64,000 nucleotides of DNA. Source: a virus. Below, one piece after another: positions 474 through 25,233 of the stretch. The position numbers were made by a program, and so were the translations under genes. Every line of letters begins with the position of its first letter. Positions within the stretch are counted from its first letter, which is position 1. The stretch is taken from positions 64,001 through 128,000 of IMG/VR virus record IMGVR_UViG_3300005537_000002, one strand, 5' to 3'. The notes below the pieces were generated by a model. The model had not been told where the DNA came from. It did no database searches and saw nothing but the letters and a program-made list of their open reading frames with translations.

Positions 474-2048
474 GTGTGTAGTATATCCGGTGTGATTATG
501 CCCGAGGGTACTTCGTACCTGAGTACGAGGCTACGGCATATCATAGATCAGGCATGTGAGAGAGGTCGTGACAGTTGGGGTACTGTCACGCTGCATACAG
601 ATCATACATACAGCAGCGTACGCTATACTGGTAGTCCGATCGAGACAGGGGTCGCTGGTACGTATCTACCTAGTAGCGCTAGGATATGTATATCGACATG
701 TAGGGCGGAGCCAACTACAGAGTGGGTACGGGAGAAAGGTATATACGATATACCACCATTCGTACATGGGAATTGGGCTTGTGCTCATAATGGATGCATA
801 GCCAACGATAAAGAGTTGGTACAGCGGTATGGACTATCGTTGGGTACGTCTATAGATACAGCGGTTATACCGGCCGTGTTGGACAAGATATGTCCCGACG
901 AACTCGATCTGGATCGTATACAGGAGTTCCTACGAGACGAGATCGAGGGTTCGTATGCTCTTGCGCTTGTGAATAGACGACATCCGGATACGCTTATCCT
1001 AGCCGTGAACTATCAACAACTATACATCGCGTATGATCAGCAGGCGGGTGCGTTGTTCTTCACCTCTATGGAAGAACACCTGTACGATGATACAGATATA
1101 CACCGCAGACTCGTACAGGGAGGGGTAGTAGAAGTACCTGCATACTCCATGCAGGTAGTACATCTTCCATCCCATAGGGGTAGTACATCTGTCATGGGTA
1201 GCAGTACTACCCTGCATGCAGGGTACAGTACAGATACAGGGCAGGGTAGTAGTACAGCCATGCAGGGTACAGTACAGATACAGGGCAGGTCCTTAAGGCA
1301 GTCCAGGGATGTACATAAGGCCCTGGTGGTCTGTAGTGGTGGACTAGACAGTACAGTAGCTGCTAGGGAGATGCAGGTACGTGGGTACGATGTTACACTG
1401 CTGCACTTCCTGTACAAGTGCAGGGCACAGGAGGGTGAGGTAGAGGCTGTACGTAAGATAGCAGCTGCCATGAACGTACCCTACCTATTCTGGGAGACAG
1501 ACTTCTTCACCAAGGTAGGTGGGTCTAGACTCACTAACACACACGGAGAGATCAACCGAGAAGGTGGTGGAATAGCAGGAGCAGAACTAGCTTGGGAGTG
1601 GTGTCCCGCAAGAAACACTGTCTTTCTAGCTATGGCTGCAGCTATAGCCGAAGTGCACGACTTTGAGTGTATTGTGTTAGGAGCAAATTTAGAAGAGGCC
1701 GGAAGTTATGCAGATAATACTCTCCCATTCATACGTAAGTTGGATGCAGTACTACCGTATGCACTCAATCTACACCACTACGTACGACTGGAGGCACCTC
1801 TCGTCAACCTGATGAAGCACGAAATCGTAGCATTGGGCCTGAAAAATGGTGCGCCGATGGAGCATTCGTACTCGTGCTATGAGTACGGAGAGCACCACTG
1901 TAACAACTGCGGTCCTTGCTTCTTACGTAAGACGGCGTTTAAGATGAACGGGACAGTGGATCCAGTGTTCGAGCATCTGTCTGAGGACGAGTTTTGGAGT
2001 GGGTGCGTTCCCTACTCCAAACGATCGGATCCAGCCATAGTTCGTTAG
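474..2048 (+). CDS. queC: Gat-QueC fusion (class II glutamine amidotransferase + 7-cyano-7-deazaguanine synthase)
   Basis: N-terminal MCSISG (Ntn Cys2), RAEPTTE, HNGCIAN; QueC motifs SGGLDST, CPARNTVF, and Zn site SC..G..HC..CGPC..R. Confidence 0.92.
   Translation: MCSISGVIMPEGTSYLSTRLRHIIDQACERGRDSWGTVTLHTDHTYSSVRYTGSPIETGVAGTYLPSSARICISTCRAEPTTEWVREKGIYDIPPFVHGNWACAHNGCIANDKELVQRYGLSLGTSIDTAVIPAVLDKICPDELDLDRIQEFLRDEIEGSYALALVNRRHPDTLILAVNYQQLYIAYDQQAGALFFTSMEEHLYDDTDIHRRLVQGGVVEVPAYSMQVVHLPSHRGSTSVMGSSTTLHAGYSTDTGQGSSTAMQGTVQIQGRSLRQSRDVHKALVVCSGGLDSTVAAREMQVRGYDVTLLHFLYKCRAQEGEVEAVRKIAAAMNVPYLFWETDFFTKVGGSRLTNTHGEINREGGGIAGAELAWEWCPARNTVFLAMAAAIAEVHDFECIVLGANLEEAGSYADNTLPFIRKLDAVLPYALNLHHYVRLEAPLVNLMKHEIVALGLKNGAPMEHSYSCYEYGEHHCNNCGPCFLRKTAFKMNGTVDPVFEHLSEDEFWSGCVPYSKRSDPAIVR
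1215..1289 (+). repeat. 31-bp direct repeat (1215-1245, 1259-1289) in the Gat-QueC linker
   Basis: CATGCAGGGTACAGTACAGATACAGGGCAGG occurs twice, period 44 nt. Confidence 0.9.
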
Positions 2049-22544: not shown

Positions 22545-23108
22545 ATGTCAGCAGATACACCTATTGTAGATCAGCCTACGTCAGAGTTACCAGTAGTGCG
22601 ACCAACTCATACTTGGAGGGTAGTAGCAGATCCGAAGGGGGATCGGAAGCTACTGTCAGTTGGAACGAGCGTACTTGAAGCTATTCAAAGCTTCGCTCGT
22701 GGAGTACAGGATAACCAGCCGATTGGCATCTATTTAGATGATGTACCCGTCGCCGGAGTACACATCCAAGCAAACCAACCGCCGCTATGCTTACATATCC
22801 TAACGGATATGTCAGCGGCAGATATTGATTGGCACAGCGGACCTACTTCTGTTTGCACGATCGACGAGACGACGGTTATCGACTTGTTGAAAGTCGCATG
22901 TAACGGAGGTAGGATAACGTCCAAACTTCGATTGCCCCTCCCAGTTGTCAGTCGCACCTCAGATGTAAGTTCACTCACACTCGTGAAACTACTACTCTCC
23001 GCACTGTCCAACGAGACACAACCCCATGTGCTAACTGAGCAATGCCAAGCAATCGTCGTACAAGTTGACAAGACGTCGTGTAAATATCTACACGTCAAAC
23101 GTAGTTAA
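22545..23108 (+). CDS. Hypothetical protein
   Basis: GGAG RBS; directly upstream of the RAMP-like gene. Confidence 0.55.
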   Translation: MSADTPIVDQPTSELPVVRPTHTWRVVADPKGDRKLLSVGTSVLEAIQSFARGVQDNQPIGIYLDDVPVAGVHIQANQPPLCLHILTDMSAADIDWHSGPTSVCTIDETTVIDLLKVACNGGRITSKLRLPLPVVSRTSDVSSLTLVKLLLSALSNETQPHVLTEQCQAIVVQVDKTSCKYLHVKRS

Positions 23109-23129: not shown

Positions 23130-23693
23130 ATGGCTGCAGTTATCATCGTCTCCATTACGGGGATGACCCCACTTATTATGAACCGCTTCCACGAGGAAGC
23201 ACAGGCAGAAGCTACCTCCCGCGTACACTCACGTAAGGAAACGCTCTCTCCGGAAGACGACGCCAAAGGTAGACTCTACCAAAACGAAGAACTCGGAGTC
23301 TACATGCCGGCCGAGTGGGTCCGTCAGTCTGTTATTGAAGCAGCTAAGAGACACAAAATTGGTAGACGGGCCGCTACTACAGACATTGCTGCCGCTGTGT
23401 ACATCGAACCGTTCGCTATGAAGCTCGAAGGTGAGTGGCACGTAGACACTCGTCCAGTCGTTATACCTGCCACTCAAGGACGTATTCTCAGACACAGGCC
23501 GATGTTCGAAACCTGGTCCGTGAAGGGTTTTCGATTGCAAGTCGAAACTGACCTCGTCGACGAAAAGCTAGTACGAGCTGTGCTAGACGACAGCGGTAGA
23601 TTCGTAGGGGTAGGAGACTTCAGACCCACTAAGAAAGGCCCCTACGGCAGATTCCGTGTAGACAGTTGGGAACGTTTAAGCAACCACTCATAA
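23130..23693 (+). CDS. Minimal RAMP/Cas7-like protein (Vipr-like)
   Basis: beta1 ITGMTPLIM, YMPAEWVRQSV (Cas7-like y.P...+G/Q..), C-terminal Gly-rich loop GRFVGVGDFRPTKKGPYGRFRV; no other cas genes in the window. Confidence 0.8.
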   Translation: MAAVIIVSITGMTPLIMNRFHEEAQAEATSRVHSRKETLSPEDDAKGRLYQNEELGVYMPAEWVRQSVIEAAKRHKIGRRAATTDIAAAVYIEPFAMKLEGEWHVDTRPVVIPATQGRILRHRPMFETWSVKGFRLQVETDLVDEKLVRAVLDDSGRFVGVGDFRPTKKGPYGRFRVDSWERLSNHS

Positions 23694-23694
23694 A

Positions 23695-24886
23695 GGTTTG
23701 GTTTGTCAAGTTAGGCTATGGTGGGTCACGGCAAGGTAAGGACGCTTCGGCTCGGATTGGTGAGCTATAGTAAGTCACGGTAGGGTGTTGTAGGGTAAGG
23801 ATGGCGTGGTTTGGACTAGTGCGACTTGGAGCCGTGGGGTAAGTCACGTTCCGGTATCGCGCGGTGTGGATGCCCAGGTACGGATCGGTTTGCTAGTGCG
23901 AGGTTGACACTGGTAGAGTTTGGTTTGTCTAGCTGGCGTCAGGTGAGGAAGCTATGGTGAGGTCGAGCATGGCAGAGTTTGCTCGGGTACTGCTAGGCGG
24001 GTTAAGGTACGGTCCGGAAGCTTTGGTCAGGTTAGGTATGCTCGAGTTTGTTACGGTGTGTTAAGGTTCTGTTTGGCTTGCTACGTTATGTATAGGTTGG
24101 CTATGCTGAGATATGGTAAGGACGCTTTGGTTTGGACTGGTCGGGACAGTTAAGGGGTGGTCCGGTATAGCTTGCTACGGATTGGTTTCGTTCGGCTCGG
24201 TTAGGAAGCTTCGGTACGGTGAGTTGAGGCTAGGATTGCAATGGTCGGGTATGTTTTTATAGGGTTCGGTTAGATCAGTAGTGGTAAGGCGCCGTAGGGA
24301 CAGGTCTGAGAGGCGAGGTTGCATGCGGCTAGGAGTGGTGTCGTATGGTACGGATGCTAAGGAGAGGTTAGGACTGCAATGGTCTGTCGCGGTAATGACA
24401 GGCGTGTCGATGTGTGGTATGTTCAGGTGAGGATGCTTCGGTATGGATCGGCGCTGTTTGGAAAGGTTTGCTAGGGTAAGTCGAGGCTCACAGAGGTATG
24501 GTAGGTCGTGGTACAGAACGGTTCGGAAGCCTAGGTATGGTACGTAATGGCATGCTTTGGTAGTCTTTTGTCTGGCACGCTAAGTCGAGGTGGAGTTCGG
24601 TAAGCTGCGGAGAGGAAGCTAAGGTCTGGAACGTCGAGGTATGGTATGGGAAGCCATTGTACGGTGAGTCGGTGTGAGCGAAGGTTTGTTAGGCTGGGGT
24701 ATGGAAGTCCAGGAAAGGTGAGGTGCAGTTTGGCAGTGCGTGGTGAGGTAGGGCTGTGTCCCGGTAACGTGAGGTAAGGTACTGCAACGCGCGGTGAGGT
24801 TCGGATGCTAAGAACAGGCGTGGTACGGTATAGTGGGGAAATGCTAGGTAAGGCATGTCAAGTTGCGCTTGCGTAAGGTACGGTTT
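23695..24886 (+). repeat. Non-coding GGY-NN pentamer array (predicted guide-RNA precursor): 213 pentamers, 15 segments, 14 nine-nt delimiters
   Basis: Parsed by hand: 213x5 + 14x9 + one extra base = 1192 nt. Begins 1 nt after the RAMP stop codon; no + strand ORF. Confidence 0.9.
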
Positions 24887-25167
24887 TACAGCGCGTGATA
24901 GTATGCGGAACCGTTGTCGAAGCATACTATCACGCGTTCGTAGTGGTTTCGGTACGCTCTATCATAGTTTGGGGTTCCGATGAGATGTAGAGCCATCTCA
25001 ATTGTAGAGTCTGACGTGTATAGCACAGTGCCATCATTAGAGGCCTTTGCTAGGTAATAGCGTACTAGGCTACCCCTTCGGACTAGCACAGTTGCATTGT
25101 AGGTCGGTTCGTTTGTCCGAGCTCTCAACAGAGAAAACGGACGTTCATTGGCTTTCCCCTCTGACAT
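24886..25167 (-). CDS. Hypothetical protein, the only plausible minus-strand gene
   Basis: AAGGAG RBS on the minus strand; convergent on the array; divergent from the AT-rich promoter at 25204. Confidence 0.45.
   Translation of the reverse strand: MSEGKANERPFSLLRARTNEPTYNATVLVRRGSLVRYYLAKASNDGTVLYTSDSTIEMALHLIGTPNYDRAYRNHYERVIVCFDNGSAYYHAL
24892..24936. terminator. 15-bp perfect hairpin closing the array
   Basis: CGCGTGATAGTATGC-15 nt-GCATACTATCACGCG. Confidence 0.65.
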
Positions 25168-25203: not shown

Positions 25204-25233
25204 TTGAATTTAGTTTATGTAATTTATTATAAT
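25204..25233 (+). promoter_or_regulatory. Sigma70-like phage promoter
   Basis: CCTC-TTGAAT-18-TATAAT. Confidence 0.7.

What the first reader, a model, noticed from the sequence alone, without database searches (positions are those of the whole stretch)
23740..24811. Nine-nt delimiters (GGAHGCYNN) cut the array into 15 guide-sized units and shift the pentamer phase
Seen: delimiters start at 23740 GGACGCTTC, 23799 GGATGGCGT, 23868 GGATGCCCA, 23947 GGAAGCTAT, 24016 GGAAGCTTT, 24120 GGACGCTTT, 24204 GGAAGCTTC, 24303 GGTCTGAGA (degenerate), 24352 GGATGCTAA, 24431 GGATGCTTC, 24525 GGAAGCCTA, 24614 GGAAGCTAA, 24703 GGAAGTCCA and 24803 GGATGCTAA. Spacings are 9+5n in every case but one (one extra C near 24762). 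Segments contain 9,10,12,14,12,19,15,18,8,14,17,16,16,18,15 pentamers, i.e. 16-38 variable nt each, similar to CRISPR spacer information content. Inference: delimiters are processing or filament start/stop signals, making this a multiplexed guide array analogous to pre-crRNA.
Basis: partly seen in the sequence, partly recalled or inferred. Interest (0 to 1): 0.85.

Follow-up and report, generated by a model that had tools for sequence, protein, structure and literature searches.

The report
Phage VIPR staggered guide-RNA array
The five-base rhythm and its regular one-base "hiccups" are real and mark the guide-RNA array of a VIPR system, a CRISPR-related, phage-borne DNA-silencing machine first described in 2026 preprints. 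This is therefore a clear new example of a known kind, not a new system.

Summary
Observation confirmed. Window 23693-24886 (+) is the only 5-nt-periodic tract in this 177.6-kb soil phage. It holds about 225 GGT-NN pentamers.

The 9-nt delimiter is better read as a 4-nt unit (GGA+N) followed by a near-normal first pentamer (GCY-NN).

The gene ending 1 nt upstream (23130-23693) is a Vipr protein. It matches SUSP1 Vipr in PDB 36pp at E 4.5e-9, has a Cas7/Csm3-like RAMP fold, and keeps the GGY-binding residues.

The locus matches the "staggered vrRNA array" of VIPR systems (bioRxiv 10.64898/2026.04.26.720920, fig. S18 legend: adjacent guides overlap by 1 nt).

Metagenomic relatives (55-71% identical Vipr) have the same -1 breaks every 59-139 nt. 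Their break 4-mers differ by lineage (GGTW, GGCW). One pair of near-identical arrays differs by exactly one 59-nt unit.

Cleavage or filament stop at the breaks remains inferred. No RNA data were available, and exact sub-pattern scans for 8 of the 15 units found no target. This scan had already noted VIPR staggered arrays in at least 36 other genomes.

The parts
23130..23693 (+). vipr gene (187 aa): lone RAMP/Cas7-like protein that should coat the pentamer RNA
   Evidence: phmmer hit to PDB 36pp_D 'SUSP1 Vipr protein', E 4.5e-9. AF2 model has pLDDT 89. Top Foldseek PDB hits are Csm3/Cas7 subunits, prob 1.0, TM about 0.6. R123, D163, F164 and R165 align to SUSP1 R138, D177, W178 and R179 and are invariant or nearly so in 42 homologues. 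phrog_4652.
23694..24885 (+). vrRNA array: about 225 GGT-NN pentamers in 15 units (16 if the +1 break also counts). It starts 1 nt after the vipr stop codon.
   Evidence: It is the only such tract on either strand of the 177.6-kb genome. GC skew is 0.43-0.50. There is no ORF over 49 aa on +, no Rfam family and no TRF repeat.
23740..23748 (+). register break 1: GGAC + GCTTC
   Evidence: -1 shift at 23742
23799..23807 (+). register break 2: GGAT + GGCGT (G in place of C)
   Evidence: -1 shift at 23801
23868..23876 (+). register break 3: GGAT + GCCCA
   Evidence: -1 shift at 23870
23947..23955 (+). register break 4: GGAA + GCTAT
   Evidence: -1 shift at 23949
24016..24024 (+). register break 5: GGAA + GCTTT
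   Evidence: -1 shift at 24018
24120..24128 (+). register break 6: GGAC + GCTTT
   Evidence: -1 shift at 24122
24204..24212 (+). register break 7: GGAA + GCTTC
   Evidence: -1 shift at 24206
24303..24311 (+). register break 8, degenerate (GGTCTGAGA). The -1 shift is real but the motif is lost.
   Evidence: -1 shift placed at 24309
24352..24360 (+). register break 9: GGAT + GCTAA
   Evidence: -1 shift at 24354
24431..24439 (+). register break 10: GGAT + GCTTC
   Evidence: -1 shift at 24433
24525..24533 (+). register break 11: GGAA + GCCTA
   Evidence: -1 shift at 24527
24614..24622 (+). register break 12: GGAA + GCTAA
   Evidence: -1 shift at 24616
24703..24711 (+). register break 13: GGAA + GTCCA
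   Evidence: -1 shift at 24705
24757..24762 (+). 6-nt unit (TGTCC+C), a +1 register break. It is either an indel scar or a second kind of boundary. It would split the 100-nt segment into 59 + 41 nt.
   Evidence: +1 shift. A +1 break (GGT+TTC) is conserved between relatives L013 and L016.
24803..24811 (+). register break 14: GGAT + GCTAA
   Evidence: -1 shift at 24805
24886..24936 (+). Long near-perfect hairpin directly after the last pentamer. It is probably the terminator or 3' cap of the vipr-array transcript. It overlaps the 3' end of the convergent ORF 24886-25167 (-).
   Evidence: Fold of 24860-24960: -38.9 kcal/mol, z -2.9. The tracker ends the array at 24886. The simple terminator scan finds no T-run terminator.
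22545..23108 (+). ORF directly upstream of vipr (187 aa). It sits where a vipr-accessory (vap) gene would be, but its function is unknown.
   Evidence: No Pfam, PHROG or PADLOC hit. No PDB sequence hit. No homologue other than itself among 5.8 billion proteins. AF2 pLDDT 36. Not similar to the ORF at the same position in L013.

Best explanation
This is the guide-RNA (vrRNA) array of a VIPR system, in the 'staggered' architecture.

Proposed mechanism:
1. vipr (23130-23693) and the array (23694-24885) are transcribed as one RNA that ends at the hairpin 24886-24936.
2. Vipr protomers bind one per pentamer. They sequester G1-G2-Y3 and present N4-N5.
3. Each run of 9-20 pentamers is one guide. It reads double-stranded DNA by the published gapped code, two paired bases then one skipped (xNN), and silences a competing mobile element.
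4. The 14 'delimiters' are 4-nt units (GGA+N, one base short) followed by a relaxed first pentamer (GCY-NN). The missing base moves the next GGY out of the 5-nt spacing that adjacent protomers need. In this phage the 4-mer also puts a purine where the Y pocket excludes purines. A filament therefore cannot run across the break. One filament ends on the always-canonical pentamer before it, and a new one starts on the two always-canonical pentamers after it.
5. The exposed junction is then probably cut or trimmed into RNPs of about 50-105 nt.

Shown here: the Vipr homology and fold, the array, the breaks, their conservation in relatives, and a whole-unit indel.

Taken from the literature for SUSP1 and P. 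fulva VIPR: the one-protomer-per-repeat filament, the xNN code and transcriptional silencing.

Inferred: co-transcription, filament stop/start at the break, and cleavage.
For: Protein:
- Vipr identity.

Array and breaks:
- Pentamer statistics and unbiased break detection.
- The array abuts the vipr stop codon, here and in relatives L013 and L015.
- Canonical GG pentamers flank every break (14/14, 13/14, 14/14), against about 50% inside units.

Relatives:
- Seven loci, six of them distinct (L004 and L005 are the same array), with 55-71% identical Vipr all show -1 breaks every 59-139 nt.
- The break 4-mers are lineage-specific: GGT[TA] in L003, L004, L006 and L017; GGC[AT] in L013-L016; GGA[ACT] in the window.
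- L016 lacks exactly one 59-nt unit that L013 and L015 have.
- L014 encodes the same Vipr protein as L013 but carries largely different guides.

Literature:
- GGY/NN vrRNAs of 9-16 repeats, the 1-nt skip rule, seven VIPR types, and 'staggered arrays with overlapping vrRNAs ... [quoted passage not shown]
- G1/G2 are held by one protomer and Y3 by the next, in a pocket that excludes purines (10.64898/2026.04.26.720927).

No ribozyme or other Rfam family lies between units.
Against: - Only 121 of 224 pentamers have GG at positions 1-2, so many interior repeats are degenerate. The preprint does mention frequent internal degeneracy.
- Relatives also show in-phase indels that ignore unit boundaries, so units are not the only quantum of change.
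- The break 4-mer keeps a pyrimidine at position 3 in the relatives. The 'purine blocks the Y pocket' part can therefore hold only for this lineage.
- No accessory (vap) gene could be recognised.
- The preprint itself did not confirm staggered arrays by sRNA-seq.
Confidence: 0.82

Rival explanations
1. Same VIPR array, but the breaks are not cleavage sites. The 1.2-kb RNA stays whole and carries about 15 separate Vipr filaments like beads on a string. The 4-nt units only keep neighbouring filaments out of register.
For: There is no ribozyme, no long repeat or handle and no tail structure between units. Only 4 nt separate the filaments. Staggered arrays lack sRNA-seq confirmation in the preprint. 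A single strong hairpin caps only the 3' end of the whole array.
Against: The preprint's fig. S18 legend speaks of 'individual processed vrRNAs'. SUSP1 vrRNAs are discrete species of about 100 nt. A DNA-wrapping filament tethered to 14 others seems sterically awkward (inference).
Confidence: 0.2
2. The breaks are neutral slippage scars in a decaying or inactive array and carry no function.
For: About half of the interior pentamers are degenerate. One break (24303) has lost the motif, and one extra base (24762) looks like a plain indel.
Against: All 14 shifts are -1, and 11 share GGAHGCY against 0.19 expected. The flanking pentamers are the best conserved in the array. Six distinct relative arrays keep -1 breaks at similar spacing. 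vipr is intact with its invariant residues.
Confidence: 0.03
3. The tract is not a guide array. It is a protein sponge (for example for CsrA-type GGA binders) or a DNA-level element such as an origin, a pac site or a G-quadruplex tract.
For: GGA motifs recur, the strand is G-rich with GG every 5 nt, and the GC skew is strong.
Against: A Vipr gene abuts the tract. The 5-nt GGY/NN grammar is exactly that of published vrRNAs. There is no Rfam CsrB/RsmZ-type hit. The same arrays sit beside vipr in all relatives examined, whatever the surrounding genes.
Confidence: 0.02

Closest known systems
VIPR systems with 'staggered' vrRNA arrays (bioRxiv 10.64898/2026.04.26.720920, fig. S18 legend)
   Same: A lone Vipr RAMP gene lies next to a long run of GGY-NN pentamers. 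Successive guides abut with a 1-nt overlap (a -1 register shift), with no tail, ribozyme or long repeat between them. The element is carried by a virus.
   Different: The figure itself is not held, so the published boundary sequence could not be compared. Here the break is GGA+N followed by GCY, with a purine at the Y position and C at G2. The metagenomic relatives examined use GGT+W or GGC+W followed by GG. The VIPR type (I-VII) could not be assigned, and no vap gene was recognised.
Type II VIPR of Escherichia phage SUSP1 and the P. fulva prophage (same preprint; structures in 10.64898/2026.04.26.720927; PDB 36pp)
   Same: The protein is homologous (E 4.5e-9) and keeps the G1/G2/Y3-binding residues. 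Guides have 9-20 pentamers against 9-16. The presumed xNN code is the same.
   Different: Each SUSP1 vrRNA ends in an invariant tail of about 40 nt with a pseudoknot, and each is a separate unit of about 100 nt. Here there is no tail, only a 4-nt break, and one hairpin after the whole array. Protein identity is below 37% to any cultured-phage Vipr.
CRISPR arrays / pre-crRNA of class 1 systems
   Same: One transcript carries many guides bound by a RAMP backbone whose thumb interrupts pairing periodically. The units hold spacer-like information (18-40 nt).
   Different: There are no 24-48-nt direct repeats, no cas genes or adaptation module, and no contiguous spacers. The punctuation is 4 nt. 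The guide is read two bases in every five.

Membership tests
VIPR system | Vipr protein: minimal single-RRM RAMP with G-loop and thumb, homologous to characterised Vipr | tested here: met
   PDB 36pp_D SUSP1 Vipr, E 4.5e-9. pLDDT 89 model. Csm3/Cas7 are the top structural matches.
VIPR system | GGY-contacting residues kept (SUSP1 R138, D177, W178, R179) | tested here: met
   They align to R123, D163, F164 and R165. R123, D163 and R165 are invariant and F164 is kept in at least 90% of 42 homologues. P. fulva has Y at the stacking position. H17 was not covered by the alignment.
VIPR system | Adjacent non-coding tract of at least 4 tandem GGY/NN (YNNGG) pentamers with conserved GGY and variable NN | tested here: met
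   About 225 pentamers with G .79, G .71, T .62 and variable positions 4-5.
VIPR system | Guides turn over while the protein stays constant (hypervariable NN between related loci) | tested here: met
   Shown in relatives only. L013 and L014 encode the identical Vipr (P0108) but mostly different units. No variant of the window's own array exists in the data.
VIPR system | Accessory vap gene next to vipr | tested here: inconclusive
   The upstream ORF 22545-23108 is an orphan with no usable fold. Relatives carry DUF559/MTES_1575 or DEAD/Helicase_C_2 genes instead.
VIPR system | vrRNAs expressed and bound by Vipr | not testable with these tools
   Only one soil DNA run holds the sequence, and no RNA holder is listed.
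VIPR system | Natural targets that obey the 1-nt-skip (xNN) rule | tested here: inconclusive
   There is no self-target and no target in the fetched loci above shuffled controls. Ten exact sub-pattern scans of viral, metagenome and genome collections, covering 8 of 15 units, gave only two chance hits.
Staggered vrRNA array architecture | Neighbouring guides offset by 1 nt (4-nt unit, -1 register), abutting without tail or ribozyme | tested here: met
   There are 14 of 14 -1 breaks. No Rfam family is present. Relatives show the same.
CRISPR-Cas | Array of 24-48-nt direct repeats with unique spacers, plus cas operon | tested here: not met
   TRF finds no repeat. PADLOC and Pfam find no Cas family in the five neighbouring ORFs.

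The most novel reading that the evidence does not exclude
A bare 4-nt unit is the whole punctuation mark of this guide array. It needs no handle, tail, ribozyme or dedicated nuclease, and filament geometry alone sets guide length. Each Vipr lineage has its own break 'dialect' (GGA-N/GCY here, GGT-W or GGC-W in relatives), co-evolved with its protein. This would be the most compact known way to multiplex RNA guides, and it may work without any cleavage, as 15 filaments on one 1.2-kb RNA.
Probability: 0.3. Interest if true: 0.55.

Novelty: new member of a known kind. Interest (0 to 1): 0.3.

Why it matters
VIPR was published only in 2026, and its staggered arrays are so far documented by one supplementary figure without RNA data.

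This locus and its relatives give an explicit grammar for that architecture:
- a one-base-short unit every 49-139 nt;
- canonical pentamers on both sides of it;
- a break sequence that differs by lineage;
- whole-unit gain or loss between near-identical arrays.

This is a concrete, testable hypothesis for how guide length is set without a repeat handle, and it would be useful for building compact multiplexed VIPR arrays. It does not change the picture of what VIPR is.

Tried and rejected
- RNA evidence: no RNA holder is listed for this sequence. Only one soil-metagenome DNA run holds it, and that run may be the source.
- Natural targets: the local xNN search of the phage's own genome and the fetched relatives gave best scores equal to shuffled-guide controls. 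Exact xNN scans with the 3'-most 8-12 dinucleotides of units U02, U04, U07, U09, U10, U12 and U13 covered viral contigs, metagenome contigs and genome contigs. The only two hits (L011, L012) matched nothing beyond the seed and were rejected as chance.
- Close relatives of the phage: none by blastn of the array, by peptide patterns of Vipr or the DNA polymerase in IMG/VR, or in GenBank phages (polymerase 25% identity at best). The two other contigs that carry the identical Vipr are the same sequence, so no variant of this very array could be compared.
- Upstream ORF as vap: no family, no homologue, and an unusable fold with pLDDT 36.
- Rfam (hammerhead and others): nothing found.
- The idea that the +4/-1 shifts keep the tract in phase with the DNA helix was rejected, because unit lengths are not whole numbers of turns.
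- A CsrA-sponge reading of the GGA motifs was rejected once the Vipr gene was identified.
- The preprint's supplementary files are not held, so the VIPR type and the published boundary sequence could not be checked.

Full report
**What is there.** The window is bases 64001-128000 of a 177.6-kb IMG/VR virus record with direct terminal repeats. It was assembled from soil. Between the stop codon of ORF 23130-23693 and a long hairpin at 24886-24936 lies a 1.19-kb tract with no ORF longer than 49 aa on the + strand. The tract has GC skew 0.43-0.50, no tandem repeat by TRF and no Rfam family.

The G autocorrelation peaks at every multiple of 5 (0.37 at lag 5). Laid out in fives, the tract reads GGTNN, with G 0.79, G 0.71, T 0.62 and two variable positions. 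A hidden-state tracker with a background state finds this as the only pentamer-periodic tract on either strand of the whole genome, at window 23693-24886.

**Check of the delimiters.** A Viterbi phase tracker was given only the pentamer weights and a uniform penalty for any phase jump.
- Twelve of 13 spacings are 4 mod 5.
- GGAHGCY occurs 12 times in the array, 11 at breaks, against a mean of 0.19 and a maximum of 3 in 5000 phase-preserving simulations.
- In the whole window GGAHGCY occurs 64 times against 30.7 in shuffles.

The simplest description of a delimiter is a 4-nt unit GGA[A/C/T], one base short, followed by a first pentamer GCYNN whose NN vary. The pentamer before the break and the two pentamers after GCYNN have GG in 14/14, 13/14 and 14/14 units. 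Interior pentamers have GG only about half the time. The punctuation is thus a frame of about 24 nt of well-kept GG positions around a one-base deletion.

**What it is.** The ORF that ends 1 nt before the array (187 aa) has no Pfam or PADLOC hit but matches phrog_4652. By phmmer it matches PDB chain 36pp_D, 'SUSP1 Vipr protein', at E 4.5e-9. An AlphaFold model built on 42 homologues has pLDDT 89. Its best structural matches are Csm3/Cas7 backbone subunits of type III and type VII CRISPR complexes.

The HMMER alignment puts R123, D163, F164 and R165 opposite SUSP1 R138, D177, W178 and R179. According to the cryo-EM preprint (10.64898/2026.04.26.720927), these residues hold G2, G1, G2 (by stacking) and Y3 of each GGY. 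R123, D163 and R165 are invariant, and F164 nearly so, in the family alignment.

The lead to this literature came from an earlier first-reader note on the same stretch that used the word 'VIPR-like'. I then read the papers. The discovery preprint (10.64898/2026.04.26.720920) reports the following:
- VIPR systems consist of a lone Vipr RAMP, usually one accessory gene, and vrRNAs of 9-16 YNNGG repeats.
- One protomer binds per repeat.
- The NN dinucleotides read double-stranded DNA while skipping every third base.
- The outcome is transcriptional silencing of competing phages and satellites.
- Among the array architectures are 'staggered arrays with overlapping vrRNAs'. The fig. S18 legend says that individual vrRNAs come from positions overlapping by 1 nt, so that the end of one marks the start of the next.

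A 1-nt overlap between pentamer runs is the same thing as the -1 register break found here. The same paragraph says that only the ribozyme-interspersed and single-vrRNA architectures were confirmed by sRNA-seq. The two later VIPR preprints say nothing about staggered arrays or vrRNA processing.

**Relatives.** The Vipr protein has more than 150 homologues at 55-71% identity, almost all from metagenomes. Cultured-phage homologues are below 37% identical. I fetched ten loci.
- In L003, L004 (and its duplicate L005), L006 and L017 the array lies upstream of vipr, next to a DUF559/MTES_1575 gene.
- In L013-L016, which all encode the identical protein P0108, the array starts at the vipr stop codon as in the window. 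It runs for at least 1.7 kb in L013.
- L002 has only an unbroken 171-nt tract. L009 and L010 were not scanned.

The L003-L006, L013-L016 and L017 arrays all show -1 breaks every 59-139 nt. The 4-nt unit is GGT[T/A] in the first group and GGC[A/T] in the second, against GGA[A/C/T] in the window. So the one-base-short unit is the conserved feature, and its third base and surroundings are lineage-specific.

Near-identical arrays allow it:
- L016 lacks exactly one 59-nt unit (4 + 11x5) that L013 and L015 carry between otherwise 98-100% identical neighbours.
- Units also differ by internal in-phase indels of 10 and 25 nt.
- L015 has a 214-nt deletion that fuses the 5' part of one unit to the 3' part of a later one.

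Since every pentamer is a micro-repeat, in-phase recombination anywhere is expected. These events do not argue against the units, but they show that units are not the only quantum of change. L014, with the same protein, has largely different guides, which fits fast guide turnover.

**How it most likely works.** The following steps are taken from the SUSP1 and P. fulva work, not tested here. Vipr coats the RNA with one protomer per pentamer. G1 and G2 are held by one protomer and Y3 by the next, in a pocket that excludes purines. N4-N5 pair with the target. DNA engagement starts near the 3' end of the guide and proceeds 3' to 5'.

The following steps are inferred here. A unit with a single N brings the next GGY one base too close, so the protomer-protomer lattice cannot continue. 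One filament ends on the canonical pentamer before the break, and a new one nucleates on the two canonical pentamers after the relaxed GCYNN. In this phage the purine at position 3 of the 4-mer would add a second block. Relatives keep a pyrimidine there, so that part is not general. The naked junction is then probably cut or trimmed by a host RNase or by Vipr itself.

The array begins at the vipr stop codon, and no promoter-like site separates them. The one weak match, at 24395-24423, lies inside the array. The next good match, at 25204-25233, lies beyond the hairpin. Co-transcription that ends at the 24886-24936 hairpin is therefore likely.

I put about 0.93 on 'VIPR staggered array'. I put about 0.8 on 'breaks are guide boundaries' and about 0.5 on 'boundaries are cleaved rather than only filament breaks'.

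**What could not be shown.** No RNA run holds this phage. No target was found:
- The phage does not target itself, and the fetched loci give nothing above shuffled controls.
- Ten exact xNN sub-pattern scans of the viral, metagenome and genome collections gave only two hits, which failed on extension.
- The scans cover eight of the fifteen units and tolerate no mismatch, so this is a weak negative.

The ORF upstream of vipr is an orphan with no usable fold. The phage has no close relative in any collection searched. The VIPR type could not be assigned because the preprint's supplements are not held.

**Novelty.** The system and the staggered architecture are published as 2026 preprints. This scan has already recorded VIPR staggered arrays in at least 36 other genomes (unchecked notes). 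The locus is a new, divergent member of a known kind. The modest new content is the explicit break grammar, its lineage dialects, the canonical flanks and the whole-unit indel. Together these make the unconfirmed 'staggered' model directly testable.

Noticed in passing
window 24757-24762: There is one +1 register break (6-nt unit TGTCC+C) inside the 100-nt segment. Counted as a boundary, it splits the segment into 59 + 41 nt and gives 16 units. Relatives L013 (4185) and L016 (1798) share a conserved +1 break (GGT+TTC), so hexamer breaks may be a second kind of punctuation rather than sequencing or indel noise.
   Followed up: partly
window 24886-24936: A long near-perfect hairpin sits exactly where the pentamer tract ends (-38.9 kcal/mol for 24860-24960). 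It has no T-run and overlaps the last codons of the convergent ORF 24886-25167 (-). It is possibly a shared terminator or a 3' cap of the array transcript.
   Followed up: partly
window 24649-24655: GGAAGCC occurs once in phase (GGGAA GCCAT) without any register break. The motif alone therefore does not make a break; the missing base does.
   Followed up: yes
L013:3556-5280 and L014-L016: In this relative clade the two pentamers before each break and the one after it have NN biased to GA/AA (GGCGA, GGCAA, GGTGA). This makes a low-information, repeat-like handle of about 20 nt written in pentamers. The window's array shows no such bias.
   Followed up: partly
L004:662-2204 (and L005): A gene with a Pfam Csf3 (type IV CRISPR Cas5-like) hit and a PAPS-reductase gene lie 1.3-2.8 kb upstream of a vipr homologue, with a DUF559/MTES_1575 endonuclease-like gene in between. 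DUF559/MTES genes flank vipr in L003, L004, L006, L009 and L017, and a DEAD/Helicase_C_2 helicase does so in L013. These are candidate vap genes of this clade.
   Followed up: no
window 474-2048: A 524-aa ORF matches PHROGs annotated as glutamine-fructose-6-phosphate aminotransferase and QueC-like queuosine biosynthesis (E 8e-109 and 3e-42). This hints that the phage modifies its DNA (7-deazaguanine pathway).
   Followed up: no
window 23694-24885, NN dinucleotides: The variable dinucleotides are AT-rich (AA 28, TT 26, AT 26 of 224) and poor in GG (8), CC (4) and CG (5). Either the targets are AT-rich or GG is avoided because it would create false registers.
   Followed up: no
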